A DNA stretch of 61,478 nucleotides, counting the filler, from Sphacelaria rigidula (lineage: Eukaryota), in assembly GCA_964200075.2 (NCBI GenBank). It is 10 parts of 10 records of this genome, joined end to end, with 100 filler letters (N's around TTAATTAATTAA, not from the genome) between each part and the next. Parts side by side here need not be neighbours in the genome. Positions count along the whole stretch, not along the records: positions 43,107 to 49,164 come from CAXNAA020022525.1; 9 more parts are not named here. One strand, given 5' to 3'. Positions 6,059 to 61,411 of this stretch are shown here, one piece after another. Every line of letters starts with the position of its first letter. Positions within the stretch are counted from its first letter, which is position 1. The notes below the pieces were generated by a model. It was not told where the DNA came from. It made no database searches and saw nothing but the letters and a program-made list of their open reading frames with translations. The position numbers and the translations under genes are program-made.

Positions 6059-6158
6059 NNNNNNNNNNNNNNNNNNNNNNNNNNNNNNNNNNNNNNNNNN
6101 NNTTAATTAATTAANNNNNNNNNNNNNNNNNNNNNNNNNNNNNNNNNNNNNNNNNNNN
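6059..6158. other. Artificial contig spacer (44 N + TTAATTAATTAA + 44 N); identical spacers at 12217-12316, 18375-18474, 24533-24632, 30691-30790, 36849-36948, 43007-43106, 49165-49264, 55322-55421
   Basis: Identical 100-bp block with stop codons in all six frames, separating segments of 6058/6057 bp. Confidence 0.97.
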
Positions 6159-8183: not shown

Positions 8184-8410
8184 TACGCATTTCCCAAGTT
8201 TTGAAATCTTGCACGGTCCTCATACCCCACAAACCCCACAAAAACACACCCACCAACCCACCCACACAAACAAAAGGACAGCTGCAGATTCTTATGCGCA
8301 CGATGTCGAGTTGCCCACAGGCGTGCGGTTTGCCGCCACACCATTGTCGCTAGAGCTCGGAAATAGTACCAGTTATAACTGGCCGTTATCGTGATAATGG
8401 TGATATATAA

Positions 8411-8896
8411 GGCCGGATGTTGTGGCACACAGATTTTTGGCCCACGGATTGTTGACTTTTGGGACGCTTGACCCACTTTTGGACCCCAAAACAGGGAAAA
8501 CCGCCAACACACGTTTCGGACACTTTGCATCACCCCACAGAGAGGAAGGAGCCTAGCCTACTTTTCAGATTCGCTTGACTCCGAGGTTTCGAGAGATTGG
8601 CCGCTGAACAATAATTTGTGCGCAATAATCTGTGCTTGCCAACATACGGTAGTTTGCTCAATCATCGGTAGAGATCGCCGTAGATTTCATTGCACAGATT
8701 ATCGTTCAGCGGCCACTCTTGAAACCTCGGAGCCAAGCGATTGTCGAATGTGGGCTAGGTTCCTCTCTGTGGGGTGATGCATAGTGTTCAAGACGTGTGT
8801 CGGCGATTTCCTCTGTTTGGGGGTCAAAAAGTGGGTCAAACGTCCCAAAAGTCAACAATCCGTGGGCCATTAGTCTCTGTGCCATAACATCCGGCC
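8411..8896. mobile_element. PIF/Harbinger (Tourist-like) foldback MITE
   Basis: TAA|GGCCGGATGTTGTGGC ... GCCATAACATCCGGCC|TAA; near-palindromic over about 210 bp per arm. Second copy starts at 61412. Confidence 0.9.
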
Positions 8897-9711
8897 TAAT
8901 AATGGTAATGGTTATACGAAAAAATTGGATAATGGTGTCGAACCATTATTTACCGTTGCCGGATTTATAAGTCGTTACCGGCTACGTATGCAACATACAG
9001 CCCTTGAAAATTGGCCCAACTGTAACGTATTTTTAGCTCTCGTGAAGCCAAATCGCGTAAAAAAGTATCTCCGGCATAGCGTCTCCAGCGGGGCCCCCTC
9101 TGCCGGGAGGGGGGGCTTTTTGGCTCGCGGCTGCGCCGCTCGATGACCAAACCATTGTGTAACAGTTAACTGGTTAATGAGTGCGCTACGCGTAACCGTT
9201 CAACTGGTTGATGGTTAGACAAATCCTTTCCAAGCTTTAGTGGTCGCAATGCGGGGCAGAACAGCCAAGCGAAAACAGTAGTACAGACAGACAGCAGTGT
9301 CTCATCTTTACATGAAAATGCCACACGAGATTGGCGAGGTCTCGTGTCAAAGCATTCCTTGCGATGTCCAACGTCAATGCCAAGAGCATGGATTTGTTCC
9401 CTCCCGCCTGCAACGAACCCCACACGGAAAACACACACACACACACACACATTTAGCGTTTGGGAGTACGACATACTTTCAATTTCAAATGTTTTGAAGC
9501 GGTGCTCATACGTACTTATTCCGTTTTTGCTCTACGAGTAGGGCAGCATATGATCCCTCACCTGAGACTTTACAGGCGTGCCTGAAAGGATAATGCCGAT
9601 ATCGAGACTGGCGCTACCACTTAATCCAAGTATTCTATCCTGAGTTATCCCACATTATGGGCAACTACTATGAGCGTTGAATCAACAACTCCTCGTCGCT
9701 TCTTGAGTCGA

Positions 9712-12316: not shown

Positions 12317-12488
12317 TTTGGCGAGTCGCATGAAGGGTGAGCTGCATTCTGCTAAGATTATTCGGCCCGAAGCCCACTGATTGTCTCGCATTTGGATGAC
12401 AGCCTCCAATGAGTTGCATTGTTTTGTGGTATCGCCACTTCCAGAGACAGCCGCGGCTTATATACTGCCTCATGGGTGCCTCACCATT
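12317..12488 (-). mobile_element. Family F non-autonomous element, 5' half (cut by contig start)
   Basis: Colinear with 55887-56045. Confidence 0.8.
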
Positions 12489-15400
12489 TGAACACTACGT
12501 AGTGCGATCATCCCCATTGGGTGTGTGTGGGGGGGGGGATTATGTTAGAGCTGAGCACAACTTCGGGAAAATGGTGTAGCTGGCAAGGACACATCTGACG
12601 CATGAGCCGGACACCATTTTCAGGCTGGTCCGAGCGAAACAAAAGACCAAGTGGCCGTGGGACGAACAGCCTCATAGCTTGTGCAGGCACTCCGGAGTGC
12701 CACGCGTGGTCTGATCGGCCAGTCAAATACATTCATCGCTTCGTCTTCTATGCGGTCACACCAACAAACGGCCTGATGAAGGAAGTACAAGGGCGTTCGT
12801 TTCGTACAGTACTCTAGAGAAATCCGTGCCTGCTCTACTGTCCTGAAGAAGAGTGTCTGCGCGTCGCCAGTACATGGAGCATATTGATCTCATCCGATCT
12901 TCCATTCATCGCCGTCTAAACGTTTCGACCAAAACAAGTACTGGTCAATCTCCAATGTACGGGATTCCGAGCCTGTGGAAGCGTATACTCATGTATTCGA
13001 TTCTTTGCTTAAGATTCTAGAACTGCGGCCAGAAACGTCCAGGACGGACGCGCATCCAAAATAATTGCTACTTTTTCAGGTCCTTTCTCCTGGTCGGGGA
13101 ATCCAAGGGTGGATATATCCCTGAGATTCGACCGAATGGGTCCCTACGGAATTGCGCTGAAGAGCGAAGAACAGGTGGATGGGCTATGGTAGTGAAGGTT
13201 GTCGAATCGTCTATGTACTTCTTCCGTCAAACGTTGACGGCCTGAATCTCTGACTTTGAGCGAAGATTTTCTGGACGTAACTTCGATCTCTTGCGCCGGG
13301 ACTAGCCCGAATATTGTATCTCCAGTCAAACACGCTCTGCTGGTCTTTTCATTGCCTCTATAGCCGACCTTCGAGCTCGACTCAATCGATTCTTGCGATA
13401 ACCCGGGCCTTGGGTTGTTTCATAAACCTCGACAGTACGTCTTCCACTCACTGCGCACCGACATCGAGAACACCATGGCCTGGCCCAACAGACCCAATAC
13501 AACACTCCCCAATATATGTCTATCTAGCTGATCAACATCTATTAATACATCTATGTGAAAAGGTGATCCCTTGACAAGACACTTGTTGGAATTGGTCCCT
13601 TCTACGTGATGGTTCCCAGGTCTTCACATGGACTGCAACTGCGCTATATTTTCCCACCAATCATTTCATACATGAGACGAATAAACCATGGTTCGTCTAT
13701 ATTCATGTCTCTCACGAAATCATGGTCGTGAATCGCATATATATCGCGATTTTGATATGCTTGAGAGTTGTGATTCTTACAAAAGGACTCTTTCCGCCAC
13801 GTCCCCCACCTTTGATTGGTACGATACGAATAATTCCAAACATTTCCCCCACCCTTTGGCGGGTACACTACAATTCACTCCAACAGTATCATGTAAGCTC
13901 TTCAAGCGAGACTGGGCATTTCGATGAACCTTTATCAAAACTTCCTGTTGCATGAATTGGTATGAAGGAGCGGTATGCTCAGCGAATCAGCCATATAACT
14001 CAGACGCAAATTCGCACGTACTCATTCGTATTTGCACTTTTAGTATCGTCGAGAAACAAGGTAAGGTACGTGCACCCGGTGAAAAATCTGAGACGCCTCG
14101 CGTCCGAACGTGAACGATATTTCTCCTTGACTGCGCACCAATCCATTTTACTCCATTTCTGCCTACGCGATTTCTTCGTAGGTTCGATTTCCATGAATCT
14201 ACGAATAAACACTGGTCAAGGGGTCCCCTCAAATCCAAACAAGCACAAGCGAAGACTAGAGAAGCCAATCGTCAAGATTCGGGGATACAGTACACTGTAG
14301 TTCTCGACTGTTTGAACCGACCACGATCTCGCCGCAATTTTTACCTCAATCGATACCAAACCCTGTTCTGGTTCGCCAGGGCCGGGTATTACAGCGCACC
14401 GAGGTTTGCACCGGTAATCATACCGACAAGTGATAGTGAAGCTAGAGAGAAGAGGCGCAGACACGCGCAAGATATCTACACTATCACGTTGTAAACGTAT
14501 GGAAAATCCAGCCATTCCATTCGGGATGTGGAATGTGATATACCGCACGCAGCTCCTCATGTTTGAACCAAAGTGCAAGCTTTTATCCGACGGCGTCAAT
14601 GTGTCAACAGTGAAGTCAGCACCTCGTCTGGCAGTTTAGACGTTGCCATGGTGGCGTGGCCGGACTCCAAGTAAAACGGGTGCCAAGGTGGAACGTACGG
14701 CTACTATGGAAAATTTTGGAACGGATATCCTAGGCAGGACCATGAATCACCCACGCGCCTGAGACCCTGCTATCATACAGCACTCGTGGGAGAACAGTCC
14801 AAGACAAACAACAGGTGCGATTTCAGCCTCCATGAAGCGCGTCATGTGCGCGACTTTGGTGAAAACGACCCCAAGCGTGAGACTTCCCAACTGCTCGGTG
14901 TGCTTGGCTTGTCCTTTCGATTCGCAAATGTGTAATTGTCCTTCCTCAATCCAGCCACCTGTGTTGGGGGGGGGGGAGGGGGGGCGCTATTGCAGCATCA
15001 CTCGTGCATTACAGCGTTGGATATCAGTGACTATCGAGGAAACTTCAATTCGGGTGTGAACGTTTTGTGCCGCTGGCATGGAAACGTGCAACTTGCCGCA
15101 AAAAACGCCTGCAAGAGAGTTGGGAGGGGTTGATGGCGGGTGTGAGGTGGCGGTTCAAGGGGACTAGAGGATAGTAACCATTCAGCAGCAGCACGGTGAC
15201 ATCGTGAGGGGGAATTTGCCAACCTCATCCCCCGCCGCCGCCCCCCGCCGCCCCCCGCCGAGTTTCGGACATGACAAAATACATGTTTTTGTGTGACACA
15301 GCTCCGACTGCAGTAAAGAAACAACACCCCGGGTCTGTACTCGAGTGGTGCACAGGTCCATTAAGCAAGCGCTGATGCCGCCAACTGAGCTAGTGGCATT

Positions 15401-18245: not shown

Positions 18246-18374
18246 TGTATTCATGATCATGCATGCCATTGTCGTAAGACCATTGATCTCACATCCCTAC
18301 AAAGCCGGAACGGAGCACGCCGGGTTTTCGCCGGACCAGGCTCGCACTCAACCACCAAGCGCGAAGCGCCGCGG
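18246..18374 (-). mobile_element. Family F element, 3' half, abutting a G/C tract (cut by contig end)
   Basis: Colinear with 55752-55880; minus-strand end ATGAATACA followed by a C-rich tract. Confidence 0.8.
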
Positions 18375-21558: not shown

Positions 21559-24462
21559 TTAGAGCGGTGCGGTAACATCATGTGTGCGATCGATATTATG
21601 TTGGATTCCATGGTGGAGGCCTTTGGATTTGAGTCGCTGAAGACACCAAGACCCCCGTGGTGCGGATGGACTGGTGGTATAGAGCTCTAGGCGGAGCTTG
21701 AGCTGCACGGGTCCGGGATCATCGATGAAGCGCACGATGTATATGTCAGGCGCGATGAGGTCTGTGGAGTGGGTCTGGCCTAGCCACCAGAGGTTGTCGC
21801 TGCCTTTGGACCAGAGGAAGGCGCCTTTGGGGAGGATTTCCTGTTTTGCGCAGATCTTTTCTTTCCAATGCTGGGTGGCTACCAATTCATAGCCATCGGC
21901 GACAAAGCGCAAACCTTTGTCACGGTGAAGTTCGCGTGCTGCTGCGCCGCGGCGCATGTTGCGATATTTCTTGTTGTTAGCAAGATGTTGCTGCTGAGGT
22001 TGTGTCTAGTACAGGAGAATAGCTCGGCGGTGCAGCTGAAGGTCGGATTCGCGTTCCCAAGACGCTCTTCGAAGGCCTTGCCAGTGAGTTTTGTACATGA
22101 CAGCAATCTTACCGCCTCGACCGCGGGTGATCTGCTGACCAGAAATGTGGAACACGGCGAGACGAAGGGGTTATTCCGTCACATCGTCGGTAGTAACGTG
22201 ATAAGGCGGTGACTTGGTCGAATAGATATTAAGTACGTACTGCGAAAGACCGGCAGGTAGATATTTGGGCATGTCTCTAGTGTCATGCGGATTGATGCAA
22301 GGTTTACAACGGTACACAGAGACGCGAGGTTTGGCGTCATGTCCTTGAAGATCGCGAGGAGGATCGAGATAAAGAAGTTTGCCACCAACAGGTTTCCCAT
22401 CAGGTGATGATGGCGAGGGCCCTACGGTCAGAATCTTGAATGGTCCTGCCCAGTTGAGGGATAACTTAGTCTTCAAGACGGTCTCGTTGGCAGCTTTATT
22501 GGCGCCTTGGCGAATGGTTGACAAACTGTTGTAAAGCCAAACCCAATCGCCAACCTTCCAAGTATGTCGTTTGTGCATCAGGTTGTAGAGAGCATCATCA
22601 GATCTCTCAAGGCACGAGGCGTTGATAGCGTGTTGTTCACGCACGAGAGTGAAAGCTTTGCGCTGGCGTGCATGGGCCAGGTCATGGTAGGATATCTGAT
22701 CCTGATCCAAGCCTTGGTGGCCATCAAAGGTGTGTTTCTCAAACACGGTGATGGGCAGGCGGGGGTAGCGACCGAGATGTAACTCGTTCGGAGAAAGACC
22801 GGTAGCAGCGTTGACGGAGTTGTTATAAGACAGCATGACATGTGAGAGATGGAGATCCCAATCGTTTTGTCGATCGTTGACTACCATAGACAGCATCTGA
22901 GTTATGGTGTGGTTAACTCTTTCTGTGCCATCGTTACCATTCGGGTGATGAGCGCTCGTGGCTATCTTTCGAATGCCCAGGAGCGTATACAGTTCGTCCG
23001 AGAGATCGGAGCAAAATTGCTGACCATTGTCGGAGAGAAGCCGTTTCGGGCAACCATAGTGCTTGATATAGTCGTGAACTAAGATGTTAGCGGTACCTGC
23101 CGCTGTGGAGTCTCCAGCGGTGACGGCGTACATGGCTGCGTGACGGCTGAACGGTCGGTAAAGAGCAAGATGTAGGTGTTACCACGATCAGTGGGCGGTA
23201 ATGGACCGAAATAGTCGAAAGACACGAGGGGACCAGGAGCGTTGGGAAGTGCCATCGAAATGACTGGCCAACGTATTGTCTGTCGTGAGGTTTTGCGAGC
23301 TTGACACTTGAAGCATCGCCGAATCCAGAAGCGAGTGGACACCTCCATACCGATCCATCAGTAAAAGCGTTCGAGTAACGCAAATATGCGCGTGACACCA
23401 AGGTGGCAAGACAAGTCAGTGTGGCAGCCTTTCATTACCCACGGTCGCATCAAAAATGGGACATATATCCGAGTGGGTTCATCGTCGAGTAGGCGTGCGT
23501 GACGTCCAGTGGGTGCGGATGAAGTTACACCCTGCCTAGGCGTAGGGCGGCGGACAAGCAGTTCGATTCCGTCATCAGTTGTGAAGATAGTACCTTTACG
23601 TGCGAGTTCGTACACTTCAGCGGCGTTTGGTGGTGGCAATGTGCCAACAGGGCCAGTAAATTGGCCGGGATAGGGGCAGGGCAGCCAGCAGGGAGGTACC
23701 GCATGGTTGCGCGGCAGAATGGTTCTGATTGTTGTTCACGAGCCCAATCACGACAGGAGTAACTGGCGAGAAATTCACGCAGTTGGCCTTCCGCCGGAGA
23801 GCCGTCGAGGCATGGTGGCTCAGGAAGCGGGAGGAACAGGTGACGGGGCGGAGGTGCCAACGTCGATGTGTACATCGGGAGCATCAGAAGGGGCGGGCAC
23901 GGACGGGGCCGCGGGGCGGCGATGTCGCAGTAGTGCGCGCCGGAGATCGCGCTCGGCGCTTGTTGTGAGAACTGCGCGTGGTGGGGGTTGTCATGGTTCG
24001 TGGTGCGGTGTTGCGGGAAGTCGGCGCTACGCTGCTCGTAGGAGCAGTAGGTGTTATCGGTGGCGGCGGGACGCGAGGAGGGTTAGCGCGGGCGGCAGAC
24101 CGAGAGCGCGTATAGTTGGAAATGAAATGGACAACTGGAGATGGCGAAACTGCAATATTTACGCGAGGACCGATAGTACGGAAATCGGTGAAATCGGCGT
24201 CTGTGGGTTTGAGCCCATCCAAGACTGCATCATACGGTAGGGGGCGAGGGCCGCCCATGTGCATACCCGTCTCTGGGCAATGAAGGTCAAGGGCGTAGAT
24301 GGGCGTTGAGAAACGTCGGATAGGGTACACGCCGGGTTCATCGGGTTCAGTTAGTCGGCAAATGGGGCTGAAATCGAGAGCCGTTGGAGGGAGGGGCAAG
24401 CGGGAAAGAAGGTCAGCATTCCCCTCTGTTTTGCCAGGGCGGTGCTTGACAGTATACTGATG
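21559..24462 (-). mobile_element. Ty3/Gypsy pol 3' part (end of RNase H, Pro/Thr-rich linker, integrase zinc finger, integrase core, C-terminal extension); frameshifted
   Basis: YTVKHRPGKTEGNADLLSRLP (RNase H end); CH...HLGVTR...FY*WIGM...CFKCQARK (HHCC); VSFDYFGPLP, LLSDNGQQF, HPNGNDGTERVNHT (DDE core); LNWAGPFKI (GPY/F motif). Confidence 0.93.
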
Positions 24463-24724
24463 AGTGATGCTACGGTAGGGGTACAGAAATAATTTCTGAG
24501 ATTAGAATTGTGAGGAGCCCTTTATCTCATCCNNNNNNNNNNNNNNNNNNNNNNNNNNNNNNNNNNNNNNNNNNNNTTAATTAATTAANNNNNNNNNNNN
24601 NNNNNNNNNNNNNNNNNNNNNNNNNNNNNNNNTCCTCGGTACTTCTGCTACAAACAGTTCGCGAGTCGGGTTGCGCACTTGAGCCTCAAAACAGAGTTAA
24701 ACCTCAATTCGCACAATTTTCTGT

Positions 24725-26171: not shown

Positions 26172-28230
26172 GGTAAGATCTATCCGTGACGTAGAGTCAT
26201 TGTATTACTACTGTAGCCGTGGTAAACTATAACAGGGGGTCCTAGAATGTCTTGCGTAGACAATGCACCCATCTAGTAGGCTATCCTTCACGTCTAACCA
26301 ATGCAAAAGATTGCCTGTGTCACAGCTACTCAGCGAAAAAGTGGCGTTGATATGCTGCGAATGGTGTACAGTATTCGTCAACTAGGGGTAGTTCTAGCTC
26401 ACCGTTGATGGTGGCCAGAACCTGCTTCGGGTCCGTGGAGAACAGTCCAGTGCTGAGAAAGCCCGGCAGGACGTCCACAAGTTCCCGTTCCTCCGACTCA
26501 CCCACCCATTTCATGTTTGTCCTATACGCTTACCTTGGAGGCGAGTGGGTCGAGCGGCACTGTTGCAACGTGCTGCACGGGGAGGAGTTGTGACGGGGAT
26601 CTATTCTACATGTGTTTGAGTCGACCTTCCGCTGCTCTCACGAGTATCTTACGGATCCGCGAGTTGGGAGGTCAGAGGCAGCGGTACGTGCATCGGGGGA
26701 ACCTTACTTTGAGCAGGGATGGTAGCGCAGAAACGCCTGCCGCGCTAAGGTGAAAAGAGTACCGTCTCACATGTCACCTTACGCTACAACATTACTGACA
26801 CATAGTTGACTAATGCCGAGATAGCCCCCCCACAAAAAGTGCACCGCCGCCGTCCAACAAACCGGGTGCGATCCTACTATTGGGCTTGTTTTCAGCAATT
26901 GCGCTCAGATGAAGGCGTGTAGCAGTCCGAAATCAGCTAAAACGCCCAAATGAGTCGCGTCGTGCAGCACGAAATCAGTTTTAACGGCATTTATCACCAT
27001 CGCCTCCGTGCACGTTTTTAGCCGGTTCGGGGGGGGGGCTATCTCGGCAGCAGTCAGTTACACCACCTTTTCCGATGTCTAGCAAAACTTCCATTGGCCG
27101 CGATTGGTGGAGCCACTGTCGATGCCCGATCTTGTTAGAAAATGAGGCTGTGGAGCCATGCCCTTCAACGCTTCGTATGTTATTGATTTTATATATATAT
27201 AATATGTAGTTTTGGGATCGCAGGTACCGGTCACGAAGGTTTGGTCTCATGTGGGGGCGTATAATGTGGGATAGCAGCTGTTATACATGAAGCACTCTTC
27301 TCTTGACCGTGTACCCCGGTGGGTTGTTTGTATTGTCTTGCCCACAAGCGGCACCTTGAACACTATCTCCAGCCTACACTCCGAAGCAGCCTGTCTGCTT
27401 GCTTGGCTTGACCGCCATTGCGCCAACTCTAGCGACCACGACAAAGGGGTTCCGAGTGAATCCTCCAACAGGTTTATTGAGCCTCGATTCGTGTTGGTGC
27501 TGACGGCGCGGACGTTGGACCTTGGAAGGAAGGAAGGAAGGAAGGAAGGAAGGGCAGCAGCAAAAGGACAGATCTTTGCTGGAAAACAACGTGAGTTGAG
27601 TCAAAGTAAGACGGCACTGTGTGTGCCTGGCACTACAACAGTGCGCTGCGTTACGATTGAGGACGGCACTCACTTTGTGCGCACCTGGCATCATCGCAGT
27701 ACGGAGATATCGCTGCGGTACGAAGTGATGGTTTTTGAAAAGCGGAACAATCGCAGGTGAACAGGAGTAGCTCTGCAACTGTGACGACACGCATCTACTC
27801 TCGACTGGCACTACAGCAGGGTACCACAACCTGAACCGAGCAGGGCGTGTGATCTATTCTTTGAGGAGACGACAACAGCGTGCGCAGCACCACGGCTGAC
27901 CTGCGGAAACAGTAACAGTCAGTAGCCGGATCCTTTTTCGGAAAGAAATTTTTCCGCGCCTACTAGAGAAGTGCACAACCGTACATTGTGTGTAAAACAT
28001 CTTGTACACTTAATTTTTATCTGTACCTCTCGTGCCGCCCCAATCCAGCGGCGTTGTGAGGGGCCGCTCTCGTGGTGGGGGACACATCTGGATTCGGTCC
28101 ATCTGCGTTCTTTTTTTCGCGACCTCCCTCGACAAGTCAAGCGGCGGTGATCAACGCCGATCGTCTGGTGCTATCGGAACACGTTATACTATACTCGTTA
28201 CGTTGGAGCCAAGCGACGAGGAGGATTATC

Positions 28231-30690
28231 ATGGCGGACAATGAGAGTATTCGTGCGGTACTTAAGTTGTGTACAAAATTTGATGGCAGAGAGAAGGCTA
28301 GTTTCCGAGAGTACCAAGACAAATTACGAGTGATCCTCTCTCTCCACCATAATGCGGCCGCAGAAATTCTGCAGGGGCGGCAGAGACCCGCACGCACCGT
28401 AATTGGTGATGCACCGTCAACCCGTGATACGGCAGCTTCACTGGCTTGGAATCGCGCAAACAATGACCTGTTCAGCATCTTATTTTTCACCACCGAAAAA
28501 TCAGCGAACAATACCGTGAGACGTTTCATGGGGAAAACCCAGGAAGACGGGGTTAGTAATGGCCAAGCAGCGTGGGCAGCGGTGCGAGAAAAATATGACG
28601 GCAACACAAAAGAGGCACGCAGGGAATTCCATGATAAACTCCACAGTACGACGTCGCAGTCAGGGGATGATCCGGAAGATTTTTTGTTTGTCATGGATGA
28701 TCACCGTGACCGCCTGGAGGAAATGGGGCAGTCCGTGCCTGACGAACGATATGAGGACATTATCCTTCGAGCCTTACCTGCCGAGTACGATAGGGTCCGC
28801 ATTGCTAGCTGTGAGAGGCGCGATTGTAATTTGTCGGACCTCAGATACATGGTCAGCACCATGTATGCTGACTACCTTTCAAGACCGGACGCCACCAACT
28901 CGGTCGCAGGCCGCAGGGTTGCTATGCAGGCTAGTGGACGGAATGATGGCAGTAAAAGAAATCAAGTAACATGCTACCACTGCGGAAAGCAAGGTCACGT
29001 ATATTGTCCCGCCCGAAGTGCGACCCGAGCACTGACAGGGGAAGACGGTCAGGACGGGGGAAACAATCGGAAGGTAGGCAGGTGGTGCTCTTTCGACAGG
29101 TCAACAACCCACAGCGAAGAAGAGTACCGTTCCTTGCAACATCGCAACCAGCAGACAGCCAATTTCGCACAATGGTCAGGGTATGCACCAGCCACCGGTA
29201 CAAGGGAGCACCCTCCCGCCATCTCTTTTAATGCCCTAAAAGCGCCCAAAGCGAACCATCCCCAAGCGGACAACCTTTGGCCTTTCGCTCTAACGAACAA
29301 ACCCGTTGCTTCTTTTGACAGCAGCGGCCTCTTCGGCGCCTTCGAAGGGGTCGACGGAAGAGGAGGCCGGGGGTCCGGGGTTCTGGCGCAGAGCTCGCAA
29401 CCTACTGCAGGGAATCAGGGAGACACTTTCCCCACTAGTGCGCGCGCTGGCCGTAATAGCCGTAGTCCACTACGTCTGGTTGATATTTGGGAGCTCATTA
29501 TACCCCCGGGCCACGTCGAACCCCGACGACACCGCTGAAATGTTTAGCGGAATCACCCATGCTGATGATGGGACGCAAGCTGCAGACGCCGCCACGCCGT
29601 GGCATCGGAGGATGGGACACTTGAACAGCAATAGTTTGCATCTTCTCAAAAACGTCGGAAGCAACGGGGTGGATTTCGGTGGAGCAGTTCCGGACTGTGA
29701 TATTTATGCTGTTGGGAAAAGTCATCAACTGGCCCACCCGAAAAAAGCCAACAACAAAGTGCAACGCTCTTTTCAACTAGTCATGACAGATTTGATGGGA
29801 CCCATCATGCCGGAGGCGCTGGGAGGCTTCAAGTACGTCTGCAAGATCTCCGATGAGTATACCAGATGGACAGAGATTTACCTCCGAAACCCAAGGACGG
29901 CACTCTTCATGCATTTCAGTCCTACGCACAGTCGATAGTCGTTCCTGGTGGTGTTCGGGTCGAACGACTAAGGGCAGACAAAGGCGGTGGGTTCATTGGC
30001 AACGAGTTCAAGTCGTACTGCCGACAGACAGGCATATTGCTAGAGTTTGCAAACACCAACATACACAACAACAAATCGGCCTGTCAGAGCGCGTAGGAAG
30101 GACGCTTGCAGCCATGGTCCGGTGCATGCTTGCTGACAGTGGTTTGCCGACTTTTCTCTGGGGGGAATTGATGTTCACAGCGGCCTATCTTGCAAACAGA
30201 TCACCGCATTCGGCGCTTGCAATGTAGTCGCCTCATAAGATGCTGAAGGGGACAGAACCGGATCTCAAACACCTTCAAGTCGTCGAAGCCAGGGCTTTCG
30301 TACATATCGAGCGGCATACTTCGAAACTTGCTCTCAAAGCAGTTGAAGGACGACTAGTTGGGTACAGTAATGACAGTAATAGCTACCGAGTCTACAACCC
30401 GGCCACACGACGTATCATTGAGAGCAGGAACGTCGTCTCCATCGAGACTCCGACACACCTTACCCCGACGGGAGAGCCAAAACTTCGGATACACCCATTT
30501 TCACTTGGTGACCAGGACTCCAACAACAGAGAGGTCCACAATTGTGTCACCGACGACGACTTATTCCGTGATCTTCGCGATCACACCTCCGTACTAGCTC
30601 AACCGGCTCACGCCTCCGTTGATCATATCACTGCCAGCGGGATCTCTAACGATCCACAGGTGGCCGAGCTTCTGGAGAGAATCAGCGCCA
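28231..30690 (+). mobile_element. Ty1/Copia gag-pol (gag, zinc knuckle, GAG-pre-integrase, integrase, SH3-like region); frameshifted, truncated by contig end before RT
   Basis: Gag with GQAAWAAVREKY and DIILRALPAEYD; CYHCGKQGH knuckle; WHRRMGHLN...CDIYAVGKSHQ; LVMTDLMGP, RLRADKGGGF, GLSERVGRTL; GRLVGYSNDSNSYRVYNP...IIESRNV. Confidence 0.95.
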
Positions 30691-30790: not shown

Positions 30791-30840
30791 AGGGAGGCGT
30801 GGCCAAGGTACAAACGACAAAGGCAACAAACAAATGAGTA
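30791..30840 (+). mobile_element. LINE 3' terminus followed by poly(C)
   Basis: Matches 45700-45750 (GCGTGG...AAACGAC...GGCAA...CAAATGAGTA), then a C18 run. Confidence 0.7.
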
Positions 30841-31419
30841 CCCCCCCCCCCCCCCCCCTCCCTCTCTCCGTTTCCCGCCGAGATACGACCATCTCAATTT
30901 ATATCGTCGAATTATGATAGTCTTATCTCGGCAGCAAAGAAACGAAGTGGCGATAGGCTCGCGATGGGTCGACGAGTATCTTGCATGTGTCCAACTTTAG
31001 AATCTTGACTCGAAAAAACCAGGGGTTTACACGTTACACGTGCCACAACGATACACGTCACGTTCACGTTATGTTTTGGCCGAAACATAACGTGAACGTT
31101 TTTTTTTTCACGTGATGAACGTAACGTTAATTTTAAGAAATGAAACGTTCACGGAACGTTCAATTTTTTTAACTTGCCAAACGAAACGTAACGTGGACGT
31201 TAAATTCCCCAAGTGTTCAAAACACGGAACACGAAACGCTTCATGGAACGTGTAGCGTCTATTACACGTTACACGTGCATTGGACGCTACACGTTACATG
31301 GAACGCCATAAATACGTTACATGAAGCGGTGCACACTTCAAGTTTGCAATGATTTTTGAAATCCGAGGAGACAAAGTAACCACTATACAACGGTACATGC
31401 ACAGGCCGTGTATTTTGCT

Positions 31420-36948: not shown

Positions 36949-37008
36949 GCATTTGGATGACAGCCTACAATGAGTTGCTTTATTTCCTGGTACTGCCACT
37001 TCCTGAGA
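36949..37008 (-). mobile_element. Family F fragment, 5'-truncated against a G/C tract
   Basis: Matches 12387-12448; followed on + by GGGGGGTGGGGGGTGGGGG. Confidence 0.7.
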
Positions 37009-42169: not shown

Positions 42170-42337
42170 TACTTTCCCTGTTCCTCCATTTTAATTTTTC
42201 TCCGCGCGCCGATACTGACAATTTTGAGTTCAAGCTTACAAGGAACAGAGATGCGGTGGACGCAACAGATGGAGAAGGAAAAAAATCGACTGCACTTTTT
42301 CCATGAAAAAAAAAAGCACCAAGACACGCCCTGGTAA

Positions 42338-42523
42338 GGCCGTGTCTTAGCACATCAGTTTACGATCGAAAAAGTGCGGTGGAAAACAAAAATCTTGATG
42401 TAATAGCCGTGATTTCAACCATCTTCCAAATTAATCATGGTTGAAATGACGGACCTATTAGATCGGGATTTTTGTTTTCCAGCGGACAATTTCGATCCAA
42501 AACTGGTGTGCCTAGACACGCCC
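42338..42523. mobile_element. Foldback MITE, probably PIF/Harbinger
   Basis: TAA|GGCCGTGTCTTAGCACATCAGTT ... AACTGGTGTGCCTAGACACGCCC|TGA. Related TIR ends at 42321-42331, ~42695 and ~48907. Confidence 0.75.
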
Positions 42524-42908
42524 TGAGGGTTAATCCGTGGGTCATGAAATCAATTTTTCTTTGTTGATGCGCCTCGTGAAATTCCTCCAGACGAAAAAAC
42601 GCGAGTGGCAACGGAACAGCAACCAGTTAGGCCGCGGTCTCTCGCTCACGAGTAGCAAACGTTTTTTTCAAGACAGACCGCTCACTCGGAGTTAGGCCGT
42701 GTCTTCACAAGGCGAAAAAGAAGTGGAAAAAGAAGAATTCAAAAGCACCAAGTTACGTCGTAATCACGCCTCCTTCGCTCATGAGTATACAAATTGCTGG
42801 TGGCAAAAGCGGTTGCGCAAATAATCTCACTATGGTCCAACTCAGCATATATCGAGCAGTTTGTCCGTGTGGCTTGTTGGACGAGGGCGGCCGAGGGGTG
42901 GGGGGGGT

Positions 42909-43006: not shown

Positions 43007-43701
43007 NNNNNNNNNNNNNNNNNNNNNNNNNNNNNNNNNNNNNNNNNNNNTTAATTAATTAANNNNNNNNNNNNNNNNNNNNNNNNNNNNNNNNNNNNNN
43101 NNNNNNTTAAACGCCTCGTACTCTGGGAGTGTACGTCAATGCACGCACGTCACCTCAAAAAAAGCGAGGGAGTCACTATCACGGAACGGTTTCCCCCGAT
43201 TTTTTTCGAAAAACCGGGGGAAACTGTTCCGAGATCGTGACTCCCCGACTTTTTCTCACCTGATGTGGTCCAAATCCGTGTCCATACAACGCATGCCCCG
43301 ATTTTTCACCCCCGATTTTGAAAAAATCGAGATTGGTGCTTGCCATAAAAGTGGGTCTTAGCACTTTACCATACCGTGGAATACGTGTACCGTGACCATT
43401 GGGTGGTGAGGTCTTGGGATCCGGAAACAAATCACCCGGAGGCATTACGGGCTGGGCCAGCCTAAAAACAGGCTCAAATTGTCACACCCAAATCTCGTCA
43501 ACGCAGAAAAAGTGGGTTGTGATCCCCACATCCTGGTAATCGTCCAATCGAGGGGCCGCTGTCCATCTACTCAACAGGCCGCTCACATGTTTTCTCGTTG
43601 ATTGAACGCCATATCGAGTAAACCCCGTGACGTGCGGAGACATCTCGAAACTAAAATATCTACGAAACCCCGTCACATGAGAACGTTCCTGGGGGGGGGG
43701 G

Positions 43702-43817
43702 TGTACTCATTTGTTGCTTGCTTTAGTCGTTTGACCACTGACCACGCATCCCTTTCGAGACAGAGGGGAGGGGGGCGTACTCATTTGTTGCTTGCCTTCG
43801 TCATTTGAACATTGACC
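43702..43817 (-). mobile_element. Two tandem, heavily 5'-truncated LINE 3' ends (43702-43760, 43776-43817), each followed by a C tract
   Basis: Both match 45694-45750 and end CAAATGAGTAC. Confidence 0.8.
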
Positions 43818-44333
43818 GTGTTCCTTGGGGCAAGGGGAAACGATCAATATCCTCGTCTTTCCCTGATTCGTCATTTATCGAGAGATACGGCATTCTTTCC
43901 ACTCAATATCAAATTCAATACATCGCACTGAATATCCTACATCTGGTTTTAGCAGCTTGATTTTGAAAGTCGTGGTTTGAACTTCATGATTGAAAACCGG
44001 AAGGGCATCATAAAAGCGTTACGCTACGGAAGACGCGGAATTTCTTTCATGAGTTTAGGATGTGTTGTAAAAAATGGATATTGTTTCTTGTCCTCAACTC
44101 ATGAAGATAAAACTCAATTTCTCTCGGGCCGTTTCTTTCTTGTGCCCTTGTCATTCTCCATACCCAAATTTCGAAGCACATCTCTCAAAAGCAAGCTACC
44201 AAATCCAGATGTAGCGCATTTTGCGCAATGTATTGAATTTAATATTGAATCGCAAAAACGCCAAATATCTCGATGGATCACGAATTAGGTAAAGGTCAGA
44301 GTATCGATCGTTTCCGCGTACCCCAAGGAACAC
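43818..44333. mobile_element. Foldback element with ~150-bp inverted arms
   Basis: GTGTTCCTTGGGG ... CCCCAAGGAACAC, with continuing imperfect complementarity inward. No clear TSD. Confidence 0.75.
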
Positions 44334-44541
44334 TCCACCAAAAATAAGCGTCATCTGTTGATTCTCACGTGACGGGGTTTCGTAAAGACTCTATTATCCA
44401 GTCCAGTACACTGCGAATGACGTAAGGTACGATGTGTAATGTCCATACGAGTATGCGCCATCTCCCCTTCAAAAAAGTACATTTGCTGTTGTTGTCAGCT
44501 ACCCAGGGGGCTCTCACCCCCCCCCCCTCCCCCCCCCCCCC

Positions 44542-45750
44542 ATACAAGAAGGAACGGGGTGTGCCAAACGGGGAAATGCGGGACGTGAACGAAGATAGCA
44601 TGAAATCGCTAGATGCGTCAGATAGAAGGGAGAAAACGATGGCTATATAGTAGTCAGCGTCAGAAGTATGCAGAATTCGTAATTCCTTCGTTTCTCAACG
44701 ATTTCCCAAAATTGTTTTGCTTACCACCGCTCATAACAGTAACTGTTGGATGCCAAAAAATGGGCATCTGGAAATATTTTTATCCTCTTGGCAAATATTG
44801 AAAAAATATATATCGGCGATCAATATTGAATATTGAGTGACTTACAGGCTTGACCGATCTTCGAGGGTCCTGCGAAAGTGCAGCCCCAGGTTGTAGCTTT
44901 TTGGTTTTCGGTGGAACGACTCGATCCCGATCATATAAGTGAAGACTCAAAAAAGAATAGTTTTTTTAATCTTCACCTATTCAGTGCGATAAAGCCAGAA
45001 AACTGTGCTTCTTGGACCATTCACTGTCAAAAACACCCTCCTGATAAACGGGGTATGTACTCCGTATCGCCCCCACAACACCAACTTCGGCATTGTGATT
45101 TGAGCACGGTCTGATTATTTTGCCGTAACTATCTACGCTCACACTTTCGAAGTGCTGATGGAAAATGTTGACGAAAAAAAAAAAGCCCATCCGCAGAAAA
45201 TGCTTGACAGATCTGTGCAGTATAGGAGGGAAACATGATCTCGATCGTTATTGTGAAGAATTGTATATGTATTAATTTACCTAGATATTTACCGTTTCGT
45301 TGCGGAAGAGCCGGAAAACTGTATTTATTGGACCAAAAACAGTCAATTACACCCTCCTGATAATGGTATCTAGTCCGTATCGCCCCGACAACACCAACTT
45401 GGGCACTGCAGTTTCAGCGCAGCCTACGCTTTACCCTAAATTTACCGGCGCTAACAATTTTAAGTAGTAATGAAGAATAATGCTCGAGAAAAACTCAAGA
45501 ACTACAACAACTACGAATTCTGAAAACTTCTGATGCTGACTACTATACCAGGAGATAGCTGGTGGCCACAGACGGCGGAACAGGACGGGGATAAGATATG
45601 TATTGTAAAAGCTTTTTGTATATTGTTTGGAAGAAACATAATGAGCGCAGGAATATTGGGGGTGGCTCTATCAGGAGTAGGAGCGGGGCCCCGTTTCGAA
45701 AGGGATGCGTGGTCAATGGTCAAACGACTAAGGCAAGCAACAAATGGGTA
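44542..45750 (+). mobile_element. 5'-truncated LINE (ORF2 C-terminus and 3' end), C tracts on both sides, interrupted by a DNA transposon
   Basis: YKKERGV...REKTMAI / PGDSWWPQTAEQDGDK joins across the insert and is colinear with 55422-55628. LINE assignment is by resemblance to non-LTR ORF2 C-termini and the variable 5' truncation. Confidence 0.7.
44648..45545. mobile_element. Tc1/mariner(pogo)-like non-autonomous element (898 bp)
   Basis: TA|TAGTAGTCAGCGTCAGAAGT ... ACTTCTGATGCTGACTACTA|TA; the empty site is seen in the paralogous LINE copy; internal direct repeat at ~45000-45190 and ~45315-45490. Confidence 0.88.
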
Positions 45751-45903
45751 CCCACCCCCCCCCCCACCCCCGCCCCCCCCCCCCCGCCGCCNNNNNNNNN
45801 NCCCCCCCCTCCCCCTCTCCCTGTCGGGCGCAAGCAGACCACCCACAAACACAAACAAAAGGAGGCCCCCCCCCCCCCCCCCCCGGGCCCCCTGCCCCCG
45901 TGA

Positions 45904-52241: not shown

Positions 52242-53326
52242 CAGTAGTAGACCCGATTTTATGCCGATTATTATATGCCAGATAATTTTTATGCCGATAT
52301 TTCTCAGGGTACACAAAAAAAGAACATGCCCCTTTTCCCTTGGGCTTCGGTACACGGCATATAATCTGGTTTCATGCGGGTTCGGCATAAAACCTGGCGC
52401 CCAACTTTGTGCAGACTGGGCATCAAAGCGAACAATTTAGCGAGTACAGCAAGGCTGCAGTCAGTAACATAGCAGCAAACGTGAGCTTGAACGCCATGCC
52501 GTGTGCGGCAGGGCAACGGTGCAAGACGAGGGAGGTTCCGGCGACGCTGGCAACGTTGAAGGCAGAACCTCAGAAGTCATCGTCAATCCGCCTCCTTATG
52601 TAGCCGTAGCAGAGGAGGTTGGAAAGTTGGAGGCTACAGCCAGTAAGAGTTGCATAGAAGATGTGTCATATTACCTTGAGAAGGCGAGGATGGCATGGAT
52701 CAAAGCGCATGCTAGAAACAACGAATTTCAACAGCAAGATATTTGCACTTATTTTGACCCATGCTACTGTAGGAAATATGGGTGTTGGTGATCCGTGCGT
52801 GGGAGAAGCTGTTGGGGGGGGCGTACTCACCCCCCCCCCAAGCTGTGGGGGTGAATCGTTCAGATAGAGCGTCGCAACGCGCAACCTTAACTTTGACGAA
52901 AAGGACCAACCGGTGCTTCTTGTGACTAGGTCGCGAGGCGCTATCATGAGAGCAACTGTGAATCAAGGGCGGGTAGATATAGCAGATGAGACTGCCGTAT
53001 TGTGGAGTACAGAAAGGTAATTTCCTTGAGCTACACAAATGTCTTAATTTCTTTCTGCACAACAACAGTTCTTGAGACAGCGGCCATCCATCCGTGCTTC
53101 AATGTGCACTCAACATTTTTCAGAACCGCGCGGTTTCACGTTCTCTGGGTGTTCGTTAAAGCACAATCGTGCTTGGCTTGTTTGTCTGATTATGTGTCTA
53201 ATCGGTGTAAAATCGGACGGACCCCGTTTTTATGCCGAGTTGGCATAAAAGCGATTGTATCCCCACTAAATATTATAACGTTTTTTTCGGGGTACGCCAC
53301 CCGGCATAAAATCGGGTTCACTACTG
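52242..53326 (+). mobile_element. pogo/Tigger-like deletion derivative (1085 bp) retaining the transposase C-terminus
   Basis: TIR CAGTAGTRRACCCGATTTTATGCCG; TA/TG TSD within a family E unit; ORF remnant at 52501-52791 containing a PIP-box-like QQDICTYF near its end. Confidence 0.85.
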
Positions 53327-55321: not shown

Positions 55322-55421
55322 NNNNNNNNNNNNNNNNNNNNNNNNNNNNNNNNNNNNNNNNNNNNTTAATTAATTAANNNNNNNNNNNNNNNNNNNNNNN
55401 NNNNNNNNNNNNNNNNNNNNN

Positions 55422-55628
55422 ACGTTTCTTCCATACATTACACAAAATCTCTTACATATCTTATCCTCGTCCTATTTCGCCGTCTCTGGCTACCATTTAT
55501 CTCCTAGTACAGCCATCGTTTTCTCCCTACTATCTAATGCATCGAACGATTACATGCCACCTTCGTTCACGCCCCGCATTTCCCCCTCTAGCACGCCCCG
55601 TTCCTCCTTTTTTCTACACGGAGCACCG
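55422..55628 (-). mobile_element. LINE ORF2 C-terminal fragment (same family as 44542-45750)
   Basis: KKEERGVLEGEMRGVNEG...DSREKTMAVLGDKW, colinear with the interrupted copy. Confidence 0.7.
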
Positions 55629-55752
55629 GTCCTCTTCCTGACGGAGACAGCTTCAACACACGTGGACACTCTTTACATCTTTCCATACTTTAAACAAGAT
55701 TTTGTTCTGCATGTCTTCGAGGAGAGGAGCAGAGGGGGGGCGCGGGGGGGGG

Positions 55753-56045
55753 AGTGCTCGTGATCTTGCATGCCATAGTCATGAGACCATTGACCTCGCA
55801 TCCCTACAAAGCCGAGGTGGAGCACACCGGGTTTCCGCCGGACCATGCTCGCAATCAATCACCAAGCGCGAAACGCCGTGTTGTGTTCGGCGAGTCGCAT
55901 GAAGGGTGAGCTGCATCCTGCTGAGGTTGTTCGGCCGCCCCGAATCGCACTGATTATCTTGGATTTGGATGACAGCCTTCAATGGGTTGCTTCACTTTCT
56001 GGTATCGCACTGCCTCACACACGGTGTCATGAGTGTCTCACCATA
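55753..56045 (-). mobile_element. Family F non-autonomous element, full-length copy between two G/C tracts
   Basis: Joins the halves seen at 18246/42909 and 12317/36949; G runs at 55734-55752 and 56046-56053. Confidence 0.85.
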
Positions 56046-57939: not shown

Positions 57940-58358
57940 CGGGGAGGGATACGTGACACGTCACGTTTTAACGTGACACATCCGAAAACACCCAACTTTG
58001 GGTCATTTAGCGCTACGCAAGATTTGATTTTTTGGATCGGACATATGTAACGTAACGTGATGTAACGTGTGGTCTTCGGGTGAACCCCAACATTGATTGC
58101 GTTTTACTTTCCAAATGTGACGAAACCTCTGCTTGTTTTCGTGAATTTGTCACGTGTCACGTTGAAAATTCACAAAAACAGCCCTTTTCTACTTAAAGAA
58201 AAAACCAAGAGACACTGCTTCAAGGTCCACATTTTACATCACGTTACGTTGCATCTGTCCCGTACAAAAAATCAAACCTCACGTAGCGTTGAACGACCCA
58301 AAGTTACGTTCTTTCAGGTTTTTTCAAATGTGTTAGGTGTGTCACGTATCCCTCTCTG
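57940..58358. mobile_element. hAT-like MITE (419 bp)
   Basis: TIR CRGRGAGGGATACGTGACAC; degenerate 8-bp TSD AAAATTAT/AATAGTAT; ACGT-rich interior. Confidence 0.8.
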
Positions 58359-60618: not shown

Positions 60619-61411
60619 CCGATGACCTCGGATGCCGGCAACGCTCACGCACATATATGTACAATACACAAGCGCATGGCAGCGACAGCCTGTACCCAAA
60701 GTAGCAACACTATCTCACGCCTCGCCAGATTTTCCCGGACTAGTGGTAGGTAGTCGAGGCACACGACACGAAACATTATCCCATAAACATGATCATGGTA
60801 GGTGATGAGCTTGGAGGGGCGGTGTGTCCGTCATCCCAGCGGTCTCCATGCCAAGGATCTCTGTACACGGCAGCTGACCGCATTCGCCAACGCTTCGGTA
60901 TTCAACTAGGGGACAGCAGGCTGAGTACCCGCCCCCCCCCCCCCCCCCAACCTCAAAAACTCGAATTTTCGATCCTGGGGCCTACGTGTCCCGAAATACA
61001 TTCTTGACAGACCCTTGCTTAACTAATGGAAAAAAAAAATGGTACGCTTGTATTTTTTTCATGCCCTATGCACTGTGCATGCCAAATTTTAAGCTCCAGC
61101 TCTGAATATTTTTCGGCGAATTCACCTTTTGAAAACCGGCTCGGTATTAATTCGGAACAGTATTTCCCAGGACACTCACTGGCCCACGTTTGGTTTCTAT
61201 GTTTTGAAATTTTGTGGGGGCCCTCGCTACGGCATAATTGACCAAACTCAGTGGGTCAGGTTGATTTCTTTTCTTTTCTTCACTGGTTTAGGGTGTTCCA
61301 TTATAGTATAGTAAAGAATATTTTTTCACGAGAACGCCCCAACCTCCATGAGAAAAAAAAATAAAGGCCCGCTTTTTTTGTTCGTCACACCTTCGTGGTT
61401 CTCCATGCTAA

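What the first reader, a model, noticed from the sequence alone, without database searches (positions are those of the whole stretch)
43691..45810. Candidate poly(C)-targeting retrotransposition system: a LINE and a non-autonomous partner share an ATGAGTA(CA) 3' end embedded in C tracts
Seen: all four LINE 3' ends in the window (30840, 43702, 43776, 45750) end ...CAAATGRGTA(C), have no poly(A), and run directly into a C tract. The three 3' ends of the otherwise unrelated family F (18246, 42909, 55753) end ATGAATACA, ATGAGTACA and ACGAGCACT and also run into C tracts. Where a 5' junction is visible (44541, 43761, 56046, 37009), a C-rich tract usually sits there too, and two LINE stubs are stacked at 43702-43817. 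Bare TGAGTAC+C-run sites at 52815-52839 and 60923-60948 may be extreme truncations. Known: some non-LTR families target microsatellites or telomeric repeats (Tx1-clade Kibi/Koshi, R1-clade TRAS/SART/Waldo), and SINE-LINE partners share 3' ends. Inference: this LINE inserts into (or tails with) C/G homopolymers and mobilises family F, which could generate the many long C runs that break this assembly. I am not aware of a described poly(C)-specific family, but could not search.
Basis: partly seen in the sequence, partly recalled or inferred. Interest (0 to 1): 0.75.

Follow-up and report, generated by a model that had tools for sequence, protein, structure and literature searches.

The report
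Known C-tract-targeting seaweed retrotransposon pair
This is a real jumping-gene family and its short passenger that insert at runs of C in a brown seaweed genome, but a system with the same features was already catalogued in the model brown alga Ectocarpus.

Summary
The LINE ends ATGAGTACG and family F ends ATGAGTACA, both running into C tracts without poly(A). In an unbiased 519-kb sample, 39 of 43 complete 3' ends are C-rich against 7% of random sites. 5' junctions are C-enriched, and 13 of 133 copies keep target-site duplications, each at a run of 3-10 C. The LINE is a 5'-truncated endonuclease-RT element whose RT groups with two Ectocarpus families. F is about 560 bp and is not unrelated: it shares about 65 nt of 3' tail and 41 nt of 5' end with the LINE.

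It is not new in kind. The 2025 Ectocarpus transposon catalogue (PMC12477816, supplement) lists RTEX-1/-2_Ec32 with '(C)n 3'' ends and C-rich duplications, plus a 607-bp partner, RTEX-N1, sharing a 60-bp tail. I could not compare DNA with those consensus sequences.

The idea that these elements made the genome's C runs is not supported: 14 of 175 long runs follow an element end. One proposed extreme truncation (60923) belongs to another repeat. What remains open is the mechanism: priming from G onto a C-ended RNA.

The parts
43691..43701 (-). C11 tract at the 3' end of LINE stub A
   Evidence: covered by contigs of other sequencing runs (records 9, 17, 25)
43702..43765 (-). LINE 3' stub A (~63 nt, the whole two-hairpin tail)
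   Evidence: 93.7% over 63 nt to L162
43765..43775 (-). C tract of stub B, forming the junction between the stacked stubs
43776..43817 (-). LINE 3' stub B (42 nt)
   Evidence: 93% over 43 nt to L162
43820..43830 (-). 5' copy of a probable 11-nt target duplication around the stub pair (C4; the 3' copy at 43685-43695 has C11)
   Evidence: score 5.5; 6.6% of shuffled pairs reach 5, so weak alone
44321..44331 (+). Same 11-nt site without insertion in the sister arm of the palindromic host repeat; carries only 4 C
   Evidence: arms 43818-43984 and 44167-44333; alignment; sequence
44517..44541 (+). C tract at the 5' junction of the split LINE fragment
44542..44647 (+). 5' part of a ~310-bp 5'-truncated LINE copy
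   Evidence: 79% over 106 nt to L162
44648..45545 (.). Unrelated ~900-bp non-coding element with ~39-nt terminal inverted repeats and TA on both sides, inserted in the LINE copy
   Evidence: TIRs 89.7%; second copy in L033 at 82.8%; joints skipping it
45546..45752 (+). LINE 3' end, encoding the ORF C-terminus (...GCVVNGQTTKASNK); the TGA stop inside ATGAGTA is TGG in this copy
   Evidence: 58-68% aa identity to database EN-RT C-termini; 83.7% to L162
45751..45810 (+). 3' C tract broken by a 10-N scaffold gap (45792-45801)
30791..30858 (+). LINE 3' stub at a contig start plus C18
18157..18214 (-). Decayed fifth LINE tail stacked behind the F copy
   Evidence: profile E 2e-7
18246..18374 (-). 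Family F 3' part, cut by contig end
   Evidence: 84% to full-length F of L044
42908..43006 (-). Family F 3' part, cut by contig end
   Evidence: 88.7% to full-length F
55753..56045 (-). 5'-truncated family F copy (~300 nt), C tracts on both sides
   Evidence: 86% to full-length F
36949..37008 (-). Family F internal piece with C-rich 5' junction
12317..12519 (-). Family F internal piece
   Evidence: 85% over 203 nt
52815..52839 (-). Possible extreme truncation: G10 + TGAGTACG + C8 between two copies of a 12-nt C-led word
   Evidence: duplication score 5.9; nulls 6.6% at 5 and 1.7% at 6; no homologous flank among held loci

Best explanation
A brown-algal RTE-X-type LINE (one endonuclease-RT ORF of about 1,350 aa, about 5.7-6.6 kb) and a ~560-bp non-autonomous partner spread by target-primed reverse transcription at short C runs. 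Shown: 5' truncation, fixed 5' ends of full-length copies, C-led duplications of 8-21 nt, a shared ~65-nt 3' tail, and C enrichment at both junctions. Inferred: the endonuclease nicks the G strand so that the primer ends in G's; these pair with C's at the RNA 3' end, the G/C mirror image of L1's T/A priming; the second nick falls 8-21 nt away. The 3' tract is therefore part target and part added (RNA C tail or slippage). The RT recognises the shared tail, so F is carried in trans. Each insertion leaves a new C tract, which invites stacking. The RNA's C's most simply come from read-through into the donor copy's own C tract. The family is old here, and it is the counterpart of RTEX-1/-2 and RTEX-N1_Ec32.
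For: LINE: RVT_1 at 93 bits (cut-off 29.6) on a locus RT; endonuclease domain on a 75%-identical intact homologue; copy lengths 29-2212 nt all anchored at the 3' end. Target: C>=5 within 30 nt of the 5' junction in 46 of 118 unstacked copies and 12 of 30 in the random sample, background 3.0%; 13 of 133 copies have a junction-anchored duplication scoring >=7, null 0.7%; all 11 full-length LINE 5' ends printed sit behind C tracts. Added C: in 14 duplications (those 13 plus the window pair) the 3' run is >= the 5' run in 13 and longer by >=2 in 7. Partner: shared tail 76-78% over 64-76 nt; 41-nt 5' motif 74-80%; stacking in 15 of 133. Conservation: three marine metagenome contigs at 96, 80 and 52% protein identity all end TGAGTACG + C8-C11. 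Prior art.
Against: 120 of 133 copies show no confident duplication. 57 of 118 5' junctions lack a run of 4 C. Two of the 13 duplications are mostly A and may be chance. Junctions were inferred from BLAST ends and can be off. No empty allele appeared: runs from two further samples carry the stub insertion. No RNA evidence. One locus-derived endonuclease piece scored below the Pfam cut-off (23.1 vs 27.4). No full-length copy lies in one contig; the length is summed from separate loci. Longer 3' runs could come from later slippage.
Confidence: 0.85

Rival explanations
1. Tail only: the element carries (C)n as its own 3' repeat and inserts without preference; 5' C runs reflect a C-rich genome or stacking.
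For: Nearly every 3' end has C's while only about half of 5' junctions do; the 3' run is often longer; the Ectocarpus table writes '(C)n 3''.
Against: 5' enrichment remains after removing 15 stacked copies (46 of 118 vs 3.0%); all 14 duplications have >=3 C on the 5' side.
Confidence: 0.07
2. Target only: the element ends at GTACG/GTACA and every C is target DNA, later lengthened by slippage.
For: Several duplications have equal runs on both sides (L008 8/8, L009 5/5, L110 3/3, L134 5/5).
Against: Slippage should lengthen both copies alike, yet 7 of 14 are longer by >=2 at the 3' side and only 1 is longer at the 5' side; copies with no C at the 5' junction still have 3' tracts.
Confidence: 0.12
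3. Artefact: the C runs are assembly or sequencing noise at repeat edges.
For: C/G runs are enriched at contig ends (11 of 98 vs 1.3%) and a gap sits inside the 45751 tract.
Against: Hundreds of contigs in each of four runs show a C run after the same end (table 7); unrelated metagenome contigs and the Ectocarpus curation agree.
Confidence: 0.01

Closest known systems
RTEX-1a/1b_Ec32 and RTEX-2_Ec32 (Ectocarpus sp. 7; PMC12477816, supplementary file 1)
   Same: Single EN-RT ORF, '(C)n 3'' or '(C)n termini/TSD', C-rich duplications, 5.5-5.9 kb, thousands of copies. Our RT lies in a 100/99 clade with two Ectocarpus-named families; one ends in a near-identical C-terminal peptide...VVNGQMTTASNK.
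   Different: Copies here are older (mostly 77-84% to each other). The Ectocarpus-named proteins come from other Ectocarpus strains, not Ec32. DNA identity to the published consensus could not be tested. The 63-bp 5' array and the stop codon 5 nt from the end are not in the parts I read.
RTEX-N1_Ec32 (607/604 bp) and RTEX-N2_Ec32 (188 bp)
   Same: Non-autonomous; '60 bp 3' end 83% RTEX-1/RTEX-2'; 'weak homology to 5' of RTEX-2'; tandem copies; C-rich duplication; head of unknown origin. F matches each point.
   Different: F is about 560 bp and begins with a 50-nt direct repeat of its own subterminal module, which the table does not mention.
Bipartite non-autonomous LINEs (RTE, Ingi, Vingi, R2; PMC5786205, passages)
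   Same: Keep both 5' and 3' LINE parts; F has a LINE 5' motif and a LINE tail.
   Different: F's LINE-like 5' motif is only 41 nt and starts 65 nt inside; about 350 nt of its middle has no LINE match; RTEX is not named in that paper.
Mammalian L1/Alu (A-tail, TTTT/AA nick; nick motif recalled, A-tail recognition in PMC3747384 passages)
   Same: Homopolymer at the RNA end mirrors a homopolymer at the target; duplication begins with the run.
   Different: C/G instead of A/T; LINE and partner share a specific tail (stringent type), unlike L1 and Alu.
Microsatellite- or telomere-targeting families Kibi/Koshi (Tx1) and TRAS/SART/Waldo (R1) (recalled)
   Same: Preference for simple repeats.
   Different: Here the preference is loose (3-10 C, about half of sites). 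Clade relationship to them was not tested.

Membership tests
APE-type LINE | Non-LTR reverse transcriptase | tested here: met
   RVT_1 93.2 bits on P0001
APE-type LINE | AP-like endonuclease upstream of RT | tested here: met
   PF03372 47 bits on P0003; genome loci match its N-terminal 330 aa at 43-69%
APE-type LINE | Variable 5' truncation, fixed 3' end, target duplications | tested here: met
RTE-X clade | RT groups with labelled RTEX references | not testable with these tools
   No labelled clade references were available; the tree holds only hits. The label rests on the Ectocarpus curators' blastp.
RTE-X clade | C-terminal CCHC zinc knuckle (recalled as typical) | tested here: met
   C-P-C...H...C motif in translations; nearly invariant in alignment A1
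RTE-X clade | Separate ORF1, with esterase in some members (PMC3905857 passages) | not tested
   The 5' region holds a 63-bp array; I did not scan it for ORF1. The Ectocarpus members are listed as single-ORF.
RTEX-1/-2_Ec32 group | (C)n 3' end | tested here: met
   39 of 43
RTEX-1/-2_Ec32 group | C-rich target duplication | tested here: met
   13 of 133 vs 0.7% null
RTEX-1/-2_Ec32 group | Length 5.5-5.9 kb with one EN-RT ORF | tested here: inconclusive
   Summed 5.7-6.6 kb from separate loci; intact homologues 1328-1360 aa; the copies I translated are broken
RTEX-1/-2_Ec32 group | DNA identity to the published consensus | not testable with these tools
   The paper's two FASTA files cannot be read here
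RTEX-N1-type partner | About 600 bp, ~60-bp shared tail, weak 5' homology to the LINE, tandem copies | tested here: met
SINE (Pol III head) | tRNA, 5S or 7SL-derived head | tested here: not met
   0 tRNA genes in 8 of 8 loci; no Rfam match near gathering score in 5 loci

The most novel reading that the evidence does not exclude
The transcripts end in a C tail that is added or trimmed by a dedicated step, and the endonuclease is a true G-strand nickase. A 62-65-nt two-hairpin tail, which overlaps the ORF's last codons, would be a self-sufficient substrate, and a pseudoknot shared by LINE and partner 5' ends would define transcript starts. This would be a G/C-primed retrotransposition route kept across brown algae that I found described only as table notes, with no mechanism.
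Probability: 0.15. Interest if true: 0.55.

Novelty: new member of a known kind. Interest (0 to 1): 0.22.

Why it matters
As a discovery it matters little: the pair, the C tail and the C-rich target are already recorded for Ectocarpus. What this adds is measurement and anatomy: a quantified target preference, evidence that the 3' tract is part target and part added, conservation of the TGAGTACG(C)n end in a family only 52% identical in protein, and a negative result on the origin of the genome's C runs. Intact relatives exist in public data (P0003, P0004), so G/C-primed insertion could be tested directly, which would show how far target-primed reverse transcription depends on A/T.

Tried and rejected
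Element origin of most C runs: rejected (14 of 175). 60923-60948 as a truncated copy: rejected. A second LINE subfamily ending AATAAG: rejected, its tail agrees in 83 of 84 columns. Ribozyme or RNA-gene head: no Rfam match near threshold in F loci or LINE 5' loci. 5' pseudoknot: 83% of cells pair, but 31 of 500 shuffles reach that and covariation is at chance (225 of 500), so inconclusive. Tail folding: both hairpins are predicted in LINE and F and hairpin 1 changes compensatorily in L165, but one tail tested against shuffles gave z = -0.7 and hairpin 2 has a mismatch in L165. Empty allele: none seen in four runs, one of which may be the source sample. No RNA holder listed. That F is the 'Sower' repeat (name recalled) was not resolved; the word is absent from the 2025 paper's main text. 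A distant relative, L164 (41%), shows no C tract in the ~340 nt after its match, but its 3' end was not located. Earlier scan findings: none in three look-ups. The random sample lacks the shortest quarter of contigs (60 of 80 planned stretches).

Full report
Setting. The window is ten separate contigs of about 6 kb joined by 100-base linkers; the first is G000:C22518 in a 244-Mb, 27,214-contig assembly. Copies in different segments are independent loci. The named protein hits are all Ectocarpus and one holder of the DNA is an algae metagenome, so I infer a brown alga.

Observation. A 193-nt LINE end gave 2,536 first-look candidates and F gave 3,957 (lower bounds). To avoid picking by score, I fetched 60 evenly spaced contig stretches (518,861 bases; the 20 planned from the shortest contigs were not obtained). 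Profiles of the last 70 nt, ending at GAGTA, found 27 LINE and 19 F ends, about one per 11 kb. Three were cut by a gap or contig end. Of the other 43, 39 have at least 6 C in nt +3 to +14 (background 7.4%) and 30 have at least 8 (0.83%). The LINE covers at least 2.4% and F at least 0.66% of the sample.

The LINE. Loci translate to endonuclease, RT and a C-terminal CCHC knuckle, and the ORF's stop codon is the TGA of ATGAGTACG, so only about 5 nt separate it from the C tract. RVT_1 scores 93 bits. Intact homologues of 1,328-1,360 aa are 72-75% identical in RT and end in nearly the same peptide; the cluster of one contains Ectocarpus proteins. In a 29-row RT tree our sequence sits in a 100/99 clade with two Ectocarpus-named families; the tree has no labelled clade references. 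Full-length copies have a sharp 5' end, about 350 nt of leader, an array of a 63-bp unit (2-19 units per locus) and about 0.9 kb more before the ORF. Summed across loci this gives 5.7-6.6 kb. Copies are mostly 77-84% alike and those I translated are broken.

Family F. Full-length F is about 560 bp with a fixed start. It opens with a 50-nt repeat of its own subterminal module, then carries a 41-nt motif 74-80% like the LINE's 5' end, and closes with a tail 76-78% like the LINE's over 64-76 nt. No tRNA or Rfam head was found. It behaves as a non-autonomous partner; I would not call it a SINE.

Target or tail. Of 172 distinct ends in all loci held then, 133 had both flanks. Fifteen are stacked behind another tail. 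Of the 118 others, 46 have a run of at least 5 C within 30 nt of the 5' junction (background 3.0%); in the random sample alone, 12 of 30. Thirteen of 133 have a junction-anchored duplication scoring 7 or more against 0.7% of shuffled pairs. In these 13 plus the window's stub pair, all have 3-10 C on the 5' side, the 3' run is at least as long in 13, and longer by two or more in 7. Inside the finding, the stub pair sits in one arm of a palindromic repeat whose other arm keeps the same 11-nt site with 4 C, while the filled 3' side has 11. So a short C run pre-exists and C's are often added. Against this: 120 of 133 copies give no confident duplication, 57 of 118 lack even 4 C at the 5' junction, and runs from other samples carry the same insertion, so no empty allele was seen.

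Mechanism (inferred). The geometry of the duplications puts the first nick on the G strand, leaving a primer that ends in G's, which can pair with C's at the RNA end. Many copies stop at 63-70 nt (11 of 74 LINE copies), and 237-283 contigs in each of three runs have a C run joined at window position 45691, the base of the first predicted hairpin. That marks the shared tail as the likely recognition unit, though the folding evidence is weak. Three metagenome contigs at 96, 80 and 52% protein identity end TGAGTACG plus C8-C11, and the most distant is followed by an F-like tail, so the system is older than this genome.

What fails. Only 14 of 175 clusters of 8 or more C follow a detected 3' end; 2 more have the motif and about 10 lie at 5' junctions by eye. 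Several others recur inside different repeats. C/G runs lie at 11 of 98 contig ends and 2 of 9 internal gaps. The site at 60923 is part of another repeat. The site at 52815 has a borderline 12-nt duplication.

Prior art. PMC12477816 (abstract, passages, section 5 part 1 of 2, supplementary searches) describes RTEX-N1_Ec32, a ~600-bp non-autonomous element with more than 6,000 copies that shares its 3' end with RTEX-1 and RTEX-2. Its supplementary file 1 gives '(C)n 3'' and '(C)n termini/TSD', C-rich duplications for all six RTE-X rows, a 60-bp tail at 83%, weak 5' homology and tandem copies. The FASTA supplements could not be read, so identity rests on anatomy and protein relationship. PMC5786205, PMC3747384, PMC5753468, PMC3905857 and PMC11203168 were seen as passages only. 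Searches listed no paper on the mechanism of C targeting; the library lacks most subscription journals and Repbase.

Verdict. Real, correctly read in outline, and a new member of a described brown-algal RTE-X system. Interest 0.22.

Noticed in passing
window, nine linkers (6059-6158 ... 55322-55421): The window is ten concatenated contigs sorted by length; nothing across a linker is contiguous.
   Followed up: yes
window 44648-45545; L033:13-921: About 900-bp TA-flanked non-coding element with terminal inverted repeats and an internal ~260-nt duplication; high copy number by depth.
   Followed up: partly
L172-L191, L098, L034, L004: The LINE 5' region holds a tandem array of a 63-bp unit, reminiscent of rodent L1 monomers (recalled); up to 19 units per locus seen.
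   Followed up: partly
L176:221-263 and F position 65-105: LINE and F 5' motif can form an H-type pseudoknot with a second stem shifted by one base between families; covariation not significant.
   Followed up: partly
window 52815-52839: G10 sits at the 5' junction of the minimal insert; G runs are rare there (2 of 118). Non-templated C addition by the RT is one guess.
   Followed up: partly
window 55422-55760; L031, L032, L034, L040, L049, L057: F copies joined to rearranged LINE 3' pieces recur with shared flanks, suggesting composite units copied together or LINE-F tail recombinants.
   Followed up: no
window 60860-61010; L123, L124, L103, L014, L039: Separate repeat family with an internal C run of variable length.
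   Followed up: partly
L108, L110, L113, L129, L136, L142: Another repeat family carries a C8-C14 run right after a recurring motif ending TACGATAG; one more source of C runs.
   Followed up: no
window 28060-30690 and 22171-24501: Broken LTR-retrotransposon coding fragments (Copia-like gag and integrase; Ty3-like integrase and RNase H), named from motifs by eye.
   Followed up: no
window 43600-44420, 43146-43267, 8406-8901, 42337-42524, 57944-58354: Several palindromic fold-back repeats; one hosts the stub pair.
   Followed up: partly
P0012, P0016 (46-48% RT identity): Distant relatives of unknown host keep a GCV(V/A)(N/D)G motif near the ORF end, the same codons that overlap the shared RNA tail here.
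   Followed up: no
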